Notes under the pieces: model-generated
The model's database searches: none
What the model was told of the DNA's origin: nothing
Seen by the model: the letters and a program-made list of their open reading frames with translations, nothing else
Translations under genes and position numbers: made by a program
Virus record (IMG/VR): IMGVR_UViG_3300034025_000046
Coordinates: 1-55,349 of that record
Length of the DNA: 55,349 nucleotides
Source: a virus
Taxonomy: Duplodnaviria > Caudoviricetes
Strand: one strand, 5' to 3'
Shown here: in pieces, positions 4,419 to 39,991 of the stretch
Layout: each line of letters opens with the position of its first letter
How positions within the stretch are numbered: the stretch's first letter is position 1

Positions 4419-4841
4419 TTAGAGTTTCGCGTCGCGCAGGAATGCCCCGCCGGGATTGTGGAACGCGTGCATCAAGTCGTCGAAGCTCATAGGAGCCTTG
4501 TCGGCGGAGAATTTGCCAAGAGCAAAACAATACTCTTGGTGCGCTGGTCCAGACTCTTCCTCGTCGACGTACCCATTGAAATGGTCAATCATGCCGACAA
4601 GCCCTTGCGCCATGGCATGGCAGACTATGATTGCGATCCGGTCACCGTTTCGAGCGGTCGCATAGGATCGATGATCTCCACCAAATTTTCGTGTCATCTC
4701 GACAATGCGCTTGGCGGCTTGGCGAGGTAGAAACGCTTTCGCCAGTTGTTCAACATCGACCCACGGAAAATCCGGCTCTTCATGCGGCGGCTTAAACACC
4801 GACACCTGCTTACCGTTGACGGTGATCTCGCCCAGTTTCAC
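4419..4841 (-). CDS. Hypothetical protein, possibly Bro-N/antirepressor-like
   Basis: GTG start overlaps the P63C stop (GTGA); N-terminus ITVNGKQVSVF...PWVDVEQLAKA resembles Bro-N. Confidence 0.55.
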   Translation of the reverse strand: MKLGEITVNGKQVSVFKPPHEEPDFPWVDVEQLAKAFLPRQAAKRIVEMTRKFGGDHRSYATARNGDRIAIIVCHAMAQGLVGMIDHFNGYVDEEESGPAHQEYCFALGKFSADKAPMSFDDLMHAFHNPGGAFLRDAKL

Positions 4842-27938: not shown

Positions 27939-28014
27939 TGGACCCGGTGTCGGGAATTGAACCCGCTCAATCCGCTTTAGAGGCGGTTGCTTCAACCAAC
28001 GAAGCTCCACCGGG
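27939..28014 (-). tRNA. tRNA with CUA anticodon (amber-suppressor type)
   Basis: CCCGGTG GA GCTT CGTTGGTTG AAGC A ACCGC CT-CTA-AA GCGGA TTGA GCGGG TTCAATT CCCGA CACCGGG T CCA; 76 nt, perfect 7-bp acceptor stem, encoded CCA; deviations G8, A27.A43, G49.A65. Confidence 0.8.
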
Positions 28015-37499: not shown

Positions 37500-37736
37500 T
37501 CATAGCGCCGCCCTTTCAGGTTCGGGGTCGGGGTGGGCGTGGGCCTGCGCTATGTCGTTCCGGTCGAGCCTGATGCCCCGACGAGCGGCGGCCTCAACCG
37601 TTCGATCCCAATACTTTGCGGGAATACGTCCCCGCATCTTCATCACCCGGCCATAGGATGCGTAGCGAAGGCCGATGTCCGCCGCGAAGTGCTCCGCTGA
37701 CGGCCAAAGCGAGATGATGTCGGAACAGGTGGGCAT
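37500..37736 (-). CDS. cro: Cro-like repressor
   Basis: DIISLWPSAEHFAADIG...MKMRGRIPAKYW; divergent from cI. Confidence 0.8.
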   Translation of the reverse strand: MPTCSDIISLWPSAEHFAADIGLRYASYGRVMKMRGRIPAKYWDRTVEAAARRGIRLDRNDIAQAHAHPDPEPERAAL

Positions 37737-37744
37737 GATCCGGC

Positions 37745-37786
37745 ACGCTATATTTGTAGCGTCACCCTGTCAACATGTTTGTAGCG
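37745..37786 (-). promoter_or_regulatory. pR promoter and OR operators
   Basis: TTGACA-N17-TAGCGT (37773 to 37745); operators CGCTATATTTGTAGCG (37746-37761) and CAACATGTTTGTAGCG (37771-37786). Confidence 0.8.
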
Positions 37787-37810
37787 CTGCGTTTCGCTAG
37801 GCGCTAGCGC

Positions 37811-38443
37811 ATGGACGCCGCAGAACGAATCCGAGACGCCATGAGGGGCGTCAGCGTGCCTTCGGCCGCCGAACTGGCGCGGCGGAGCAAGGTGAAGGCC
37901 GTGACGATGCGGGCCTACCTCGCGTCCAGGTTCGATCCGCCGCTTGACGTTTGCGAGCGCATGGGGGCTGTTCTTGGTGTCTCGGGCAAGTGGATCTTTG
38001 ACGGCACGCCGCCGCGATTTAGCCCGGGTCCGGACGCGGCTAGTGAGGTCCGGCTTACGCGAGTACCTTTACTCGACGAGGTGACCGCAGGGCGCCTCAA
38101 AGAACCCAATTCGCAGATTCCGGCGGAGAAGGTGCCTCTTCTCGCGTTTGCTGATCTTGGACCAGGCGAGTGGTTCGCGCTGACGGTGAACGGAACTTCA
38201 ATGGATCGCATATCGCCGGACGGGTCCGTGATCGTCGTAAATAAGCGTGATCGCGCGCTCGTTTCCGGCCTGTGCTACGTCTTCGCCTTGGCGGGAGAGA
38301 CGACGTACAAGCGCTGGCAGGGCGGGGACCCCCCCTACCTCGAACCTTACTCCACGGACGCCATCCACAAACCGATCTTCGTCAAGAGGCGGCGCGATTT
38401 TGAGGTGATCGGCCGTGTTAAGAGAACGGTGCTTGACCTCTGA
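37811..38443 (+). CDS. cI: CI-like repressor (HTH + S24 autopeptidase)
   Basis: N-terminal HTH; VTAG cleavage site, GTSM catalytic Ser, TYKR catalytic Lys, VIGRV. Confidence 0.92.
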   Translation: MDAAERIRDAMRGVSVPSAAELARRSKVKAVTMRAYLASRFDPPLDVCERMGAVLGVSGKWIFDGTPPRFSPGPDAASEVRLTRVPLLDEVTAGRLKEPNSQIPAEKVPLLAFADLGPGEWFALTVNGTSMDRISPDGSVIVVNKRDRALVSGLCYVFALAGETTYKRWQGGDPPYLEPYSTDAIHKPIFVKRRRDFEVIGRVKRTVLDL

Positions 38444-38835
38444 CCGAGCAAGAGTGGCATCGTTTTGTATTCCTCGGTCAGCCGCAGACCGTTAGCGTGT
38501 GCCGTCTGCCCGAGCCTCTCAGGCTAGCAATTGGGTCCAGCTCGGACTTGGTCCGAATGAGGCACGACTACGCCCTAAAGTCGGCCCTCAAACACCGACT
38601 GCTTGCGGCTCACTTCCCGATGACGGCCTTCGCCATAGCGAGGGGACGCGTGCTTGCCGACCGGCCCCGACATTTAACAATCCTCTATGAGGACCGGGCC
38701 ATCTTCGGGACCTGGTTCCACCTGACGATCAAAGCCAGCTCGGACGGCTCAGAAGTTTGGGTCGTGTCGTTCCGAAAGACAAACTCGGTGGAGGCCCAGC
38801 GCCGCTACCGGAGAGACCCAATCGTCCGGTCCTAA
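38440..38835 (+). CDS. Putative BECR-fold (RelE/barnase/colicin-like) RNase toxin
   Basis: Frame is open from a CTG overlapping the cI stop (CTGA); KH motif, then beta-meander FHLTIKASSDGSEVWVVSFRK typical of phage BECR RNases; family assignment is inference. Confidence 0.55.
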   Translation: MTEQEWHRFVFLGQPQTVSVCRLPEPLRLAIGSSSDLVRMRHDYALKSALKHRLLAAHFPMTAFAIARGRVLADRPRHLTILYEDRAIFGTWFHLTIKASSDGSEVWVVSFRKTNSVEAQRRYRRDPIVRS

Positions 38836-38864
38836 CGAAAACGGACGGCTTTCGCCGCCCGTCT

Positions 38865-38998
38865 CGTGCGTGGTGGGCACTCCCAAACGAAACCCACATA
38901 ACGCTCAGCGCCGGATCGAAGGAGCCACCCGCAAGCGAACAAGCGGCATCTCTTATGGATCGGTCTGGCCACGGCCGGGAGATTCACCGTGTCACACG
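38865..38998 (+). ncRNA. Candidate structured ncRNA with kissing-loop pseudoknot
   Basis: Stems GTGGG/CCCAC (loop has CTCCC) and CACGG/CCGTG (loop has GGGAG) flank a long central hairpin (38907-38967); the 5' and 3' ends can pair imperfectly. Confidence 0.55.
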
Positions 38999-39098
38999 CC
39001 CGGACAATATGGGCGTCGAGCGCGCGCGTGGCAAATCACGTTTTTTTCCTGGTTGCGGATCGGTGGGCTGCGGCAGGGCGTCGCATGTAGCAGGGTAG

Positions 39099-39140
39099 CG
39101 CTACAAATATATTGACTGGGTAGCGCTACATATATAGCGT
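39099..39140 (+). promoter_or_regulatory. pL promoter and OL operators
   Basis: TTGACT-N17-TAGCGT (39112-39140); operators CGCTACAAATATATTG (39099-39114) and CGCTACATATATAGCG (39124-39139) match OR. Confidence 0.8.
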
Positions 39141-39166
39141 TCGGTCATCCCAACGGGACGACGCAC

Positions 39167-39991
39167 ATGCAGACCGACGCCGCAACTCCCACCACAGCCG
39201 AGCCGATCTGGCTCACCGACGCCAACGGCAACAGATGTTCCATCGCGTATTTCGGAACGCGTGAGAGAGCACAGGAGGCGCTCGATAGTCTGATCGATTG
39301 TCGGGACTGCTCGGACTGCTCGGACTGCTCGGACTGCTCGCGCTGCTCGCGCTGCTCGCGCTGCTCGCGCTGCTCGCGCTGCTCGCGCTGCTCGCACTGC
39401 TCGCGCTGCTCGCGCTGCTCGGACTGCTCGGACTGCTCGGACTGCTCGGACTGCTCGGACTGCTCGAACTGCTCGGACTGCTCGCGCTGCTCGCGCTGCT
39501 CGGACTGCTCGGACTGCTCGGACTGCTCGGGCTGCTCGGGCTGCTCGGGCTGCTCGGACTGCTCGGACTGCTCGCGCTGCTCGCGCTGCTCGGACTGCTC
39601 GGGCTGCTCGGACTGCTCGAATATCGCTTTTCTGAGCGGGCGCGAGAACCTGAGGGGTGATCCGAGCGCGCCCCTTGCGGCGGGGTCTCCGGTCATCCCC
39701 ACCATCGAGAATATCCACGCGAAGGTGTTGGCCGCAGCGTCCGAGCCCTGCGCGCTGGATATGGCCACTTGGCACACCTGCGGCACGACGCATTGCCGGG
39801 CCGGATGGGTCGTTCATCTCGCTGGCGAGCCTGGTTATGCGCTAGAGCGCTTTCACGGCACTGGATTGGCCGCTCAGCTTATCTACCGCGAGAGCAACCC
39901 GGCCATGCCGGTGAGCCCGGTCCGGTTCTACGAGACCAACGAGCAGGCCCTCGCTGACATGCGAGTTATGGCTGAGAGGGAGGCGCTCTGA
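39167..39991 (+). CDS. Cys-rich tripeptide-repeat protein with C-terminal WHTCGTTHCRAGW domain
   Basis: 36 Cys-X-X units; first gene after pL; stop overlaps the next ATG. Confidence 0.8.
   Translation: MQTDAATPTTAEPIWLTDANGNRCSIAYFGTRERAQEALDSLIDCRDCSDCSDCSDCSRCSRCSRCSRCSRCSRCSHCSRCSRCSDCSDCSDCSDCSDCSNCSDCSRCSRCSDCSDCSDCSGCSGCSGCSDCSDCSRCSRCSDCSGCSDCSNIAFLSGRENLRGDPSAPLAAGSPVIPTIENIHAKVLAAASEPCALDMATWHTCGTTHCRAGWVVHLAGEPGYALERFHGTGLAAQLIYRESNPAMPVSPVRFYETNEQALADMRVMAEREAL
39299..39622 (+). repeat. 9-bp tandem repeat, 36 copies (TGCTCG-GAC/CGC/GGC)
   Basis: Read directly from the sequence. Confidence 0.95.

What the first reader, a model, noticed from the sequence alone, without database searches (positions are those of the whole stretch)
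38440..39015. cI-coupled RNase-like toxin plus kissing-loop ncRNA: candidate new RNA-antitoxin / prophage defence module
Seen: between cI and pL (the position of rexAB in lambda, expressed in the lysogen) is a 131-codon ORF ending in a beta-meander FHLTIKASSDGSEVWVVSFRK. It is followed by ~170 nt with no convincing gene but dense pairing: a hairpin at 38841-38862; P2 GTGGG(38873)/CCCAC(38893) with CTCCC in the loop (38880-84); a long central hairpin at 38907-38967; P4 CACGG(38970)/CCGTG(38987) with GGGAG in the loop (38977-81); an imperfect 5'/3' closing stem; and a final CGCCC/GGGCG hairpin. The two loops are exactly complementary, which predicts a kissing-loop pseudoknot. Established: type III TA systems (ToxIN, CptIN, TenpIN) pair an endoRNase with a pseudoknotted RNA, but their RNAs are tandem repeats upstream of the toxin. 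Inference: this is a BECR-fold RNase with a single downstream structured RNA partner and no protein immunity gene, an architecture I cannot match to a named system.
Basis: partly seen in the sequence, partly recalled or inferred. Interest (0 to 1): 0.85.

Follow-up and report, generated by a model that had tools for sequence, protein, structure and literature searches.

The report
Phage RNase gene with partner RNA
Next to a prophage repressor gene lies a small RNase-like gene followed by a conserved, knotted RNA that also follows the same protein domain in many other phages, and this RNA may be what keeps the RNase in check.

Summary
Window 38440-38835 encodes a 131-residue protein that starts at a CTG overlapping the cI stop codon. 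Its AlphaFold model (pLDDT 97.8) resembles BrnT, RelE, CdiA-CT and colicin D. It is homologous to the C-terminal PBECR domain of Mu-like MuF head proteins (hhalign 99.3%).

Window 38864-39001 is one member of a structured RNA family that Rfam 15 did not match. The RNA is a four-way junction (P1-P4) whose L2 and L4 loops pair as a kissing pseudoknot. On 37 sequences, 95.9% of cells pair, against 73.5% in shuffles. P1, P2, P3 and the loop-loop helix all covary. One locus has three tandem copies with three different loop pairs (CUCCC:GGGAG, CGGGA:UCCCG, CGCGA:UCGCG).

Among 22 viral loci found by protein, 20 carry the RNA directly downstream. Of 30 MuF loci, only 2 carry it, and both have this domain.

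The link is not exclusive. Of 55 distinct metagenomic RNAs, 23 have no such gene upstream.

My best reading, an RNA that neutralises the nuclease (antitoxin or immunity RNA), is inferred and untested (about 0.4). The pair is a new variant of RNA-protein toxin systems and is worth bench work.

The parts
37811..38443 (+). cI-type repressor (HTH + S24 peptidase); its stop TGA (38441-38443) overlaps the CTG start of the next ORF
   Evidence: Pfam PF00717 E 1.3e-13; PHROG 4 'transcriptional repressor' E 1.2e-22
38440..38835 (+). Solo PBECR-type (BECR/RelE-fold) nuclease-like protein, 131 aa; inferred CTG start coupled to the cI stop; K47, H52, K98 and S110 retained
   Evidence: The public gene call (P0002, 92 aa) starts at M40 and misses the conserved N-terminus
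38841..38862 (+). Spacer hairpin between the stop codon and the RNA (ACGGACGGC-UUUC-GCCGCCCGU); no U tract follows
   Evidence: A hairpin in the same place with different sequence occurs in the solo-type loci L001, L160 and L167
38864..39001 (+). Structured RNA: four-way junction with an L2-L4 kissing pseudoknot; a member of a family that Rfam 15 did not match
   Evidence: CM R1 40.4 bits E 2.3e-6; CM R2 56 bits (R2's training alignment A8 includes the window's own RNA); covariation; Rfam negative
38866..38872 (+). P1 5' strand (pairs with 38995-39001, 6 of 7 pairs)
   Evidence: Alignment A9; all 7 P1 pairs show changes on both sides across the family
38873..38897 (+). P2 hairpin GUGGG/CCCAC; loop L2 holds CUCCC (38880-38884)
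   Evidence: all 5 P2 pairs covary
38907..38969 (+). P3, the variable arm; unusually long here (about 60 nt, against about 14-30 nt in most members)
   Evidence: all 4 modelled P3 pairs covary
38970..38991 (+). P4 hairpin CACGG/CCGUG with a 12-nt loop CCGGGAGAUUCA; GGGAG (38977-38981) pairs with L2
   Evidence: The 19-mer 38973-38991 is identical in 14 viral and 88 metagenome contigs. P4 does not vary, so it cannot be tested by covariation. Loop-loop covariation
38995..39001 (+). P1 3' strand (CACGCCC)
38996..39016 (+). Alternative hairpin ACGCCC/GGGCGU that overlaps the P1 3' strand; not seen conserved in Mu-type loci
39026..39050 (+). Intrinsic-terminator-like hairpin plus U tract; the likely 3' end of the cI-ORF-RNA transcript
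   Evidence: 1 site found; shuffles give a mean of 1.4, so the scan alone is weak
39094..39130 (.). Two copies of GGTAGCGCTACA, 25 bp apart (operator-like), flanking a TTGACT...TATATA promoter-like site for the rightward early genes; related half-sites at 37755-37791

Best explanation
The locus is a two-part module in the 3' part of the prophage's cI transcript.

Part 1 is a free-standing PBECR-type nuclease-like protein with a BECR/RelE fold. It is probably translated by termination-reinitiation at a CTG that overlaps the cI stop codon.

Part 2 is a dedicated structured RNA, about 138 nt long, in its 3' UTR. It forms a four-way junction whose L2 and L4 loops kiss.

The same protein domain and RNA also travel together at the end of the MuF head-protein gene of Mu-like phages, and as cargo of an IS1595-family transposon.

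I propose that the RNA is the cognate partner of the nuclease domain. It would bind the domain and hold it inactive, acting as an RNA antitoxin or immunity RNA. Because the RNA begins at or just after the stop codon, it can refold next to the protein as the ribosome leaves, and so capture the nuclease in cis. In the lysogen this would give a poised RNase that is released when the labile RNA or its transcription is lost, causing abortive infection, exclusion or addiction. In Mu-like virions it would keep an injected RNase effector silent in the producing cell. RNA copies without the gene, and tandem arrays, would then act as orphan immunity.

Shown: the fold, the homology, the RNA structure and the linkage.

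Inferred: RNase activity, toxicity, binding, inhibition, cis capture and any defence role.
For: Protein
- AF2 model: pLDDT 97.8, pTM 0.90.
- Best fold matches are nearly all BECR/RelE toxins. BrnT 3u97: Foldseek prob 1.00, TMt 0.69. VIA Z scores: 7.5 for 7vd7_A, 7.0 for BrnT, 6.4 and 6.0 for CdiA-CT toxins, 5.3 for colicin D, 5.0 for RelE.
- hhalign of the solo family against the MuF C-terminal domains: 99.3%, E 7e-21.
- 8 of 8 upstream ORFs scanned carry PF04233. PBECR3 appears in 5 of the 8, and in 2 it is above Pfam's cut-off.
- The predicted active-site pattern is kept in 58 solo homologues: H52 in 55, T/S110 in 58, K98 in 58, K47 in 56. This matches the pattern of a His in the N-terminal helix plus a C-terminal Thr/Ser given for PBECR in PMC5512222 (passages read).

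RNA
- On A9 (37 sequences), 95.9% of cells pair, against 73.5% in shuffles (0 of 500 reach the observed value) and 36-59% when the partners are slid. 19 of 25 pairs change on both sides.
- Kissing-loop variants: CUCCG:CGGAG, CUCCA:UGGAG, CUCUC:GAGAG, CUGCC:GGCAG; CUCGC:GCGAG. Three tandem copies in L276 use CGGGA:UCCCG, CUCCC:GGGAG and CGCGA:UCGCG.

Linkage
- Protein-first, viral: 20 of 22 loci have a strong model hit directly downstream on the same strand, and 1 has a weak hit. Of the 12 loci on contigs not seen before, 9 are strong.
- RNA-first, viral: 13 of 14 contigs have the domain ending just upstream.
- MuF control: the RNA is in 2 of 30 MuF loci. Both are among the 4 that have this domain; 0 of the other 26 have it.
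- Co-mobility: in L001, 51-nt inverted repeats enclose an IS1595 transposase, a DUF4145 gene, the solo gene and the RNA. L160 also has an IS1595 transposase upstream.
- No conserved protein neighbour was found among the solo loci.

Precedent
- The prophage toxin AbiF is neutralised by its adjacent structured RNA RCd22 (abstract of 10.1101/2025.04.15.648962).
Against: - Nothing here tests toxicity, RNase activity, binding or inhibition.
- The link is not exclusive. Of 55 distinct metagenomic RNAs with enough upstream sequence, 23 have no PBECR-like ORF upstream (one of the 23 is a weak model hit, and one looks like a frameshifted MuF gene).
- Contexts of these lone RNAs include the stop codon of a dihydroorotase-like amidohydrolase gene, a position after a TerC/CorC gene, after Mu gemA, after a Fic/DOC gene, and beside an integrase. 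This could point to a generic 3'-end or processing role.
- Some homologues lack a detectable RNA: L161, L162 and L166, and phages B23 and Dulem virus 31.
- The RNA lies downstream of the toxin-like gene and, in solo loci, behind a hairpin. This is the opposite order to ToxIN and does not obviously give an excess of RNA.
- The invariant P4/L4 and junction sequences would suit a ribozyme or a ligand-binding core equally well.
- The MuF-C domain of phage Mu itself is described as an inactive PBECR (PMC5512222), so not every member need be a toxin.
- The VIA Z scores (7.5 at most) fall in the range the tool calls common. The fold call rests on the consistency of the hit list.
Confidence: 0.4

Rival explanations
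1. The RNA is a cis-acting target rather than an inhibitor. The nuclease domain would recognise, and perhaps cut, this element in its own transcript. That would limit its own synthesis, or process the polycistronic message (F from G in Mu-like phages; cI-ORF mRNA here). Lone copies would be further targets.
For: The evidence is the same linkage. P1 starts -5 to +8 nt from the stop codon in 14 MuF-type loci measured. The next gene (gpG, PF05069) starts about 20 nt after P1, with no obvious Shine-Dalgarno sequence but a recurring AGUAUA box. From general knowledge: the BECR-fold RNase RegB of T4 cuts specific mRNA sites. RegB appears in the hit list at Z 3.5.
Against: A complex junction of about 85 nt with a pseudoknot is elaborate for a cleavage site. 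Solo loci end in terminators, with no downstream gene to regulate. The tandem arrays with different loop pairs in each copy look like independent folding units made in quantity, not single regulatory sites.
Confidence: 0.2
2. The RNA is an autonomous functional RNA whose function needs no PBECR protein. It could be a new self-cleaving ribozyme, a tRNA-like processing or punctuation element (RNase P or Z), a 3'-end stabiliser, or a ligand-binding aptamer. It would simply be common in Mu-like phages.
For: - Lone copies: 23 of 55, including one at the stop codon of a housekeeping-type gene (L268) and one beside an integrase.
- Tandem copies occur.
- About 30 nearly invariant nucleotides lie in the junctions and in L4.
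- The order of helices and the L2-L4 contact match the topology of a tRNA cloverleaf. This is my own reading; ARAGORN calls no tRNA there.
Against: - It is absent from the 26 MuF loci that lack this domain.
- It moves together with the solo gene into a lambda-like immunity region and into an IS1595 transposon.
- Rfam's ribozyme, tRNA and riboswitch models gave no hit at E<=1-10.
Confidence: 0.2
3. The RNA is a positive cofactor or cargo. It would form an RNP with the nuclease domain that is the active or packaged species, serving as guide, activator, chaperone, or an RNA delivered with MuF into the next host.
For: The linkage is the same. PMC5512222 proposes an RNA-binding role for the inactive MuF-C domain of Mu.
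Against: No region varies in the way a guide would. P3 varies in length and sequence but shows no target-like pattern that I could see. Solo copies in the lysogeny operon are not virion proteins.
Confidence: 0.1
4. There is no functional RNA in the window. The pairing is chance in GC-rich DNA, or the region encodes a small protein.
For: Folding energy is not unusual (z -0.59 to -1.69). ORFs of 81-113 aa overlap the region.
Against: The model hits and the covariation contradict chance. P3 length varies in steps that are not multiples of three, and the stems change by compensatory substitutions, so the region is not coding.
Confidence: 0.02

Closest known systems
Type III toxin-antitoxin systems (ToxIN, CptIN, TenpIN)
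   Same: On the best reading, both have a predicted endoRNase-like protein encoded next to a pseudoknotted RNA. Both are carried by phages and mobile elements, and the RNA can occur in tandem copies (2-3 here).
   Different: From general knowledge, type III antitoxins are short tandem repeats (about 36 nt) upstream of the toxin, are cut out by the toxin, and pair with ToxN/AbiE-type toxins. Here the RNA is an 85-140-nt four-way junction, usually single-copy, downstream of a BECR-fold protein. Processing and inhibition are untested.
AbiF (Abi_2) with RCd22 / abiF RNA motif in a C. difficile prophage
   Same: A prophage-encoded toxic protein is neutralised, in cis and in trans, by an adjacent structured non-coding RNA through direct binding (abstract of 10.1101/2025.04.15.648962). 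That RNA motif, too, is conserved next to the toxin gene.
   Different: The protein fold differs (Abi_2, Cas13-related). The RNA is different and lies in a different position. No Rfam family, the abiF motif's included if Rfam holds one, matched here.
PBECR domains and MuF-C (Iyer et al. 2017, PMC5512222; Pfam PF18810/PF18812)
   Same: The same domain superfamily is involved: a BECR fold, a helix His plus a C-terminal Thr/Ser, solo versions in phages, and fusions to MuF (look-alike clusters).
   Different: The passages I read mention no partner RNA. The window protein itself gets no Pfam hit. I could not see that paper's supplementary files.
RelE/BrnT/ParE type II toxins and CdiA-CT/colicin D tRNases
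   Same: These are the nearest solved folds.
   Different: They have protein antitoxins or immunity proteins. No conserved protein partner was found here. Sequence identity is 8-13%, and the protein has an extra N-terminal helix and strand of about 35 residues.
Lambda rexAB
   Same: The position and likely expression match: downstream of cI on the repressor transcript, before the terminator and the pL-type operator region.
   Different: The proteins are unrelated, and rexAB has no RNA component.
Orphan immunity genes of polymorphic toxin systems (CDI/Rhs; general knowledge)
   Same: Copies of the presumed neutraliser occur without the toxin, sometimes in arrays.
   Different: Those are proteins. 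That the lone RNAs protect anything is speculation.

Membership tests
PBECR (phage BECR nuclease) superfamily, Pfam PBECR3 PF18812 / PBECR2 PF18810 | Match to the Pfam model above its gathering score | tested here: not met
   The window protein has no Pfam family at E<=1. Among 58 solo homologues, PBECR3 matched 1 (E 0.011) and DUF4258 matched 1 (E 4.6e-4). The MuF-fused relatives L015 (38.6 bits) and L011 (31.8 bits) pass the 30-bit cut-off.
PBECR (phage BECR nuclease) superfamily, Pfam PBECR3 PF18812 / PBECR2 PF18810 | Homology to bona fide PBECR-bearing MuF C-termini | tested here: met
   hhalign A2 against A7: probability 99.3%, E 7e-21, 126 columns. phmmer found the MuF fusions P0098 and P0106.
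PBECR (phage BECR nuclease) superfamily, Pfam PBECR3 PF18812 / PBECR2 PF18810 | BECR fold | tested here: met
   Model pLDDT 97.8. Top structural matches are BrnT, RelE-type toxins, CdiA-CT and colicin D, with Z 5.0-7.5. The Z values are moderate.
PBECR (phage BECR nuclease) superfamily, Pfam PBECR3 PF18812 / PBECR2 PF18810 | [quoted passage not shown] | tested here: met
   H52 lies in helix 42-52 and S110 in strand 106-114. They are conserved in 55 of 58 and 58 of 58 homologues.
PBECR (phage BECR nuclease) superfamily, Pfam PBECR3 PF18812 / PBECR2 PF18810 | RNase activity | not testable with these tools
   Predicted only, both here and in PMC5512222.
Type III toxin-antitoxin system | Protein toxin that is an endoRNase and is toxic when expressed alone | not testable with these tools
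   Only the fold and conserved residues are known.
Type III toxin-antitoxin system | RNA antitoxin made of short tandem repeats upstream of the toxin, separated from it by a terminator | tested here: not met
   There is a single RNA of about 138 nt downstream of the ORF. Relatives have 1-3 copies of 80-110 nt.
Type III toxin-antitoxin system | Antitoxin RNA folds as a pseudoknot | tested here: met
   The L2-L4 loop-loop helix has compensatory changes in 3 of 5 pairs, and strand-swapped variants occur.
Type III toxin-antitoxin system | RNA binds and inhibits the toxin; the toxin processes the RNA | not testable with these tools
   No tool here models RNA-protein binding.
Type II RelE/ParE-type TA | Adjacent protein antitoxin gene | tested here: not met
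   The upstream genes differ between solo loci: cI, DUF4145, IS1595 transposase, and unrelated ORFs. No conserved downstream ORF was seen.
Any Rfam 15 RNA family | Covariance-model match | tested here: not met
   In window 37500-39400 at E<=10, the only match at the RNA is STnc390 on the opposite strand (18.7 bits against a gathering score of 50); GlsR26 (15 bits) lies inside the cI gene. In 8 related loci at E<=1, nothing matched at the RNA.

The most novel reading that the evidence does not exclude
This would be a new class of RNA immunity. A single-copy RNA with tRNA-like topology (four-way junction with an L2-L4 kissing loop) neutralises a BECR-fold RNase. It sits at the stop codon so that it captures the nuclease domain in cis as the ribosome leaves. 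Mu-like phages would use it to keep an injected MuF-RNase effector silent in the producing cell. Prophages and IS elements would carry the solo gene plus RNA as an abortive-infection or addiction module. Lone RNAs and tandem arrays, whose copies each use a different loop pair, would be orphan immunity against the effectors of incoming phages.
Probability: 0.3. Interest if true: 0.9.

Novelty: new variant of a known kind. Interest (0 to 1): 0.8.

Why it matters
A large, strongly covarying RNA with a pseudoknot is tied to a predicted nuclease domain that many Mu-like phages carry in their virions. Rfam 15 did not match it, and my six literature searches found no paper describing it.

- If the RNA is the neutraliser, RNA antitoxins would extend to the BECR/RelE superfamily, which so far is known only with protein antitoxins.
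- It would suggest how phages handle a packaged RNase effector while they are being assembled.
- It would give orphan RNA immunity as a testable idea.
- If instead the RNA is autonomous (a ribozyme or a processing element), it is still a new structured RNA class with a defined test set.

In either case the prediction is directly testable with a small gene, an RNA of about 90 nt, and loop and compensatory mutants.

Tried and rejected
- Rfam gave no family for the RNA.
- Single-sequence folding energies were not significant (z -0.59 to -2.40 in 5 members; z -1.69). The case therefore rests on comparison, not thermodynamics.
- GenBank phages (50,697 records) and PLSDB plasmids: no meaningful blastn match to the RNA or the locus, and no tblastn match to the window protein. 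Two distant MuF relatives (phage B23, Dulem virus 31) have no RNA by model R2.
- A loose DNA pattern in viral contigs returned mostly chance or coding matches. Only 4 of the 78 new loci scanned were real by the model.
- Of the 88 metagenome contigs with the exact 19-mer, 12 have no model hit and look like coding matches.
A3 found no relative in viral contigs.
- PADLOC and NCBIfam gave nothing.
- A conserved protein partner among solo loci was not found.
- A coding reading of the RNA region was rejected.
- ARAGORN calls no tRNA at the RNA.
- Inverted repeats around the L160 transposase were not found.
- The 2026 BECR-classification preprint could not be opened.
- The 'Minerva' preprint and the AcrIIIA1 paper proved irrelevant.
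- Complex prediction was not used, because it cannot take RNA.
Full report
**1. Setting**

The window is itself an IMG/VR virus record of 55,349 bp, which CheckV estimates to be 91% complete. The first gene in the region, 37811-38443 (+), is a cI-type repressor. It matches Peptidase_S24 at E 1.3e-13 and PHROG 4 at E 1.2e-22.

Operator-like repeats lie on both sides of the locus. GGTAGCGCTACA occurs at 39094 and at 39119, and related half-sites lie at 37755 and 37780. A terminator-like hairpin followed by a U tract sits at 39026-39050. The right-hand repeats flank a promoter-like site that points rightward.

The finding therefore occupies the stretch between cI and the pL-type control region.

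**2. The ORF**

In the frame of 38440-38835, the first ATG/GTG/TTG is GTG 38497. Homologues of 134 aa, however, align from residue 1: MTEEEWF and MKDVDWF align with LTEQEWH. The AF2 model also folds residues 1-39 into the domain at pLDDT above 96. I therefore infer a start at CTG 38440, which overlaps the cI stop codon (cTGA). The public gene call (P0002, 92 aa) starts at M40 and is probably too short.

An exhaustive phmmer search over 1.84 billion representatives gave 166 proteins at E<=0.001 and 50 at E<=1e-10. Most are free-standing proteins of about 130-140 aa. Two, P0098 and P0106, are MuF proteins (PF04233) that carry the domain at their C-terminus. Long multi-hit proteins such as P0005 and P0052 are beta-propeller or repeat proteins, and I set them aside as spurious.

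The window protein has no hit in Pfam, PHROGs, PADLOC or NCBIfam. Weak Pfam hits among 58 homologues point to PBECR3, DUF4258 and LPD13.

**3. Fold and family**

The AF2 model built on 58 sequences has pLDDT 97.8 and pTM 0.90. Foldseek's best match is the RNase toxin BrnT (3u97), with E 2.3e-3, prob 1.00 and TMt 0.69. No match reached E<=0.001.

The Foldseek-independent search gave 7 chains at Z>=5:

| Z | Chain | Protein |
|---|---|---|
| 7.5 | 7vd7_A | toxin of a TA complex |
| 7.0 | 3u97_A | BrnT |
| 6.4 | 5i4q_A | CdiA-CT |
| 6.0 | 7m5f_C | CdiA-CT |
| 5.3 | 5znm_B | colicin D tRNase |
| 5.3 | 8ey4_A | CdiA-CT |
| 5.0 | 2kc8 | RelE |

Further RelE, YoeB, ParE, HigB and MqsR entries follow, with T4 RegB at Z 3.5. 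The tool warns that Z values of 7-8 are common. The argument is the uniformity of the hit list.

Profile-profile comparison of the solo family (A2) with the C-terminal domains of MuF proteins (A7) gives 99.3% probability and E 7e-21 over 126 columns. Those MuF proteins carry PBECR3, above Pfam's cut-off in 2 of the 8 scanned.

Iyer et al. (PMC5512222; I read passages with 'find') define PBECR domains as phage BECR RNases. They describe solo versions and MuF or portal fusions, and an active site made of a His (or Arg) in the N-terminal helix plus a C-terminal Thr/Ser. They call the MuF-C domain of Mu itself an inactive, probably RNA-binding, version.

In the 58 solo homologues, K98 is invariant, T/S110 is kept in 58 of 58, K47 in 56 of 58 and H52 in 55 of 58. 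The window protein has all four. ESM Atlas look-alikes are PBECR2/3 clusters; I treat these as leads only.

**4. The RNA is real**

The first relative found was L001, from a Xanthobacteraceae MAG, with 45% protein identity. It carries the same elements downstream, and a 23-nt stretch (ACGGCCGGGAGAUUCACCGUGUC) is identical to the window's.

The exact 19-mer occurs in 14 IMG/VR contigs and in 88 metagenome contigs. Of the 88, 76 have a covariance-model hit. The other 12 look like chance or coding matches.

The consensus is a four-way junction:
- P1 is the closing stem.
- P2 has ACUCCC in its loop.
- P3 is variable in length and sequence. It is about 60 nt long in the window.
- P4 is ACGG/CCGU with the loop CCGGGAGAUUCA.
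- The junctions are conserved (CACGCGAUCC, UCCU, GUUU).

Model R1, built without the window, scores the window at 40.4 bits, E 2.3e-6. R2 scores it at 56 bits, but R2's training alignment A8 includes the window's own RNA.

On 37 sequences (A9), 95.9% of cells form standard pairs. Shuffles give 73.5% (0 of 500 reach the observed value), and sliding the partners gives 36-59%. Changes on both sides occur in 19 of 25 pairs: 7 of 7 in P1, 5 of 5 in P2, 4 of 4 in P3, 3 of 5 in the loop-loop helix and 0 of 4 in P4, which never varies.

Two caveats apply. The alignment is fitted to the model, and many rows were retrieved through the P4/L4 motif, so P4 and part of L4 are invariant by selection.

The kissing loop is supported by variants from sequences retrieved through the protein or through looser patterns:
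- CUCCG:CGGAG, CUCCA:UGGAG, CUCUC:GAGAG and CUGCC:GGCAG.
- CUCGC:GCGAG and UCGC:GCGA, read by eye.
- Three tandem copies in L276 that use CGGGA:UCCCG, CUCCC:GGGAG and CGCGA:UCGCG. This is the strongest case.

There are exceptions. L001 and L009 have CUCCA opposite GGGAG, which is one mismatch.

Single-sequence folding is not significant (z -0.59 to -2.40). Rfam 15 has no match.

**5. Linkage to the protein**

*Protein-first, viral contigs.* Of 22 loci, 20 have a strong model hit directly downstream on the same strand. L137 has a weak hit, and L145 and L146 have none. Of the 12 loci on contigs not retrieved before, 9 are strong. By eye, L137, L145, L146 and L165 carry a variant RNA. It has an extra 5' hairpin whose loop (GCCUGG) is complementary to the P3 loop (CCAGGC), and it lacks the P4 hairpin.

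*Protein-first, 401 genomes of the class of L001's genome.* Eleven genomes hold a homologue. The ten loci other than L001's own gave these results:

| Result | Loci |
|---|---|
| Strong RNA hit | L163, L164, L167, L168 |
| 32 bits | L160 |
| 17.6 bits (E 0.14) | L159 |
| No hit | L161, L162, L165, L166 |

*Control.* Of 30 MuF loci taken from 49 of the same 401 genomes, only 2 have the RNA. Both are among the 4 loci whose MuF carries this domain, and 0 of the other 26 have it. The 1.5-kb flanks may miss the gene end in the longest ORFs.

*RNA-first, viral.* In 13 of 14 contigs the domain ends 52-139 nt before the 19-mer. L009 has none.

*RNA-first, metagenomes.* There are 55 distinct RNAs that have a model hit and at least 450 nt of upstream sequence. 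Of these, 32 have a PBECR-like ORF upstream and 23 do not. I dropped 11 loci with too little upstream sequence and 12 with no model hit before this count. Among the 23, L207 is a weak hit and L272 looks like a frameshifted MuF gene.

**6. Contexts**

In Mu-like phages the order is F(MuF-PBECR) - RNA - G (PF05069) ... I protease. P1 starts -5 to +8 nt from the stop codon in 14 MuF-type loci.

Solo genes have a spacer of 19-43 nt, often with a hairpin (window, L001, L160, L167).

In L001, 51-nt inverted repeats (1981-2031 and 4606-4656) enclose an IS1595 transposase, a DUF4145 gene, the solo gene and the RNA. L160 also has an IS1595 transposase upstream.

The upstream neighbours of solo genes are otherwise unrelated to each other.

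Lone RNAs were found in these places:
- at the stop codon of a dihydroorotase-like amidohydrolase gene, ahead of a GAPDH-like gene (L268);
- after a TerC-CBS-CorC gene (L227);
- after Mu gemA, as three tandem copies (L276);
- about 500 nt after a Mu I-gpT head gene (L282);
- after a Fic/DOC gene (L279);
- beside an integrase (L202).

Two copies occur in L006, L218, L229, L235, L260 and L281.

**7. Interpretation**

Shown:
- a BECR-fold, PBECR-type protein with its active-site pattern intact;
- a new, structured, pseudoknotted RNA family;
- strong but non-exclusive linkage between the two, and co-mobility.

Inferred: the RNA is the nuclease's cognate partner. I rank the readings as follows.

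| Reading | Confidence |
|---|---|
| Inhibitor (immunity or antitoxin RNA) | 0.4 |
| Cis target or processing site of the nuclease | 0.2 |
| Autonomous RNA (ribozyme, tRNA-like punctuation, stabiliser or aptamer) | 0.2 |
| Cofactor or cargo | 0.1 |
| Chance or coding | 0.02 |

The inhibitor reading explains several observations together:
- the co-mobility;
- the absence of the RNA from MuF genes that lack the domain;
- the absence of any conserved protein partner;
- the lone and arrayed copies, as orphan immunity.

It also has a precedent in AbiF/RCd22 (abstract read). The lone copies next to housekeeping genes and the invariant core keep the autonomous-RNA rival alive.

**8. Prior knowledge**

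I ran six literature searches:
- MuF + RNA motif + toxin;
- PBECR;
- MuF + structured RNA;
- MuF + polymorphic toxin + immunity + RNase;
- RNA antitoxin + BECR;
- type III toxin-antitoxin + RelE + pseudoknot + prophage.

None returned a paper describing this RNA, judging from the listings and the passages I opened. I therefore call the RNA 'not found', not 'unpublished'.

Noticed in passing
window 39167-39991 (+): The first gene after the pL-type promoter encodes a 274-aa protein with a long run of Cys-Ser-X triplets (CSDCSDCSRCSR...), made by a 9-nt DNA repeat. Its ends match the PHROGs 31265 and 15341, of unknown function.
   Followed up: no
window 27939-28014 (-): ARAGORN calls a tRNA with anticodon CUA (labelled tRNA-Pyl). 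This would be an amber-suppressor-type tRNA in this phage.
   Followed up: no
L001 1981-4656: An IS1595-family transposon with 51-nt inverted repeats carries a DUF4145 gene, the solo PBECR gene and the RNA as passengers. L160 also has an IS1595 transposase just upstream of the pair.
   Followed up: partly
L137 1921-2040; L145 1849-2000; L146 1860-2030; L165 downstream of the ORF: A variant RNA class follows some MuF-PBECR genes. It has an extra 5' hairpin (GGGCUGCGCCUGGUAGCCC) whose loop is complementary to a GCCAGGC loop in P3, which would be a second kissing loop. It has no P4 hairpin. Its L2:L4 pair is CUCGC:GCGAG in L145 and L146. This was read by eye only.
   Followed up: partly
L276 1788-2192: Three tandem RNA copies follow a Mu gemA gene, and each has a different, mutually exclusive kissing-loop pair. 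Two-copy loci: L006, L218, L229, L235, L260, L281.
   Followed up: partly
L268 3198-3285 (-); L227; L279; L202; L009: RNA copies occur with no PBECR gene nearby. One sits at the stop codon of a dihydroorotase-like gene. Others lie after a TerC/CorC gene, after a Fic/DOC gene, beside an integrase, and in a 12.8-kb viral locus with no homologue.
   Followed up: partly
L003 9919-9940, L011, L013, L141, L152 and others: Between the RNA and the ATG of the next gene (gpG) there is no clear Shine-Dalgarno sequence, but an AGUAUA box recurs. Solo loci have a similar CAAUAU/GAUAAU motif 8-15 nt after P1.
   Followed up: no
L167 (genome G301): A solo homologue is split into two pieces but keeps a terminator-like hairpin and the RNA (43.9 bits). 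It may be a decaying gene with a retained RNA.
   Followed up: no
L222, L232, L224, L266, about 70-150 nt upstream of the RNA: Several lone RNAs are preceded by another long conserved hairpin (…CUCCUGUGGAA…GGCCCCAGAUAAGGUGGCC…UUCCACAGGAG). This may be a second structured element.
   Followed up: no
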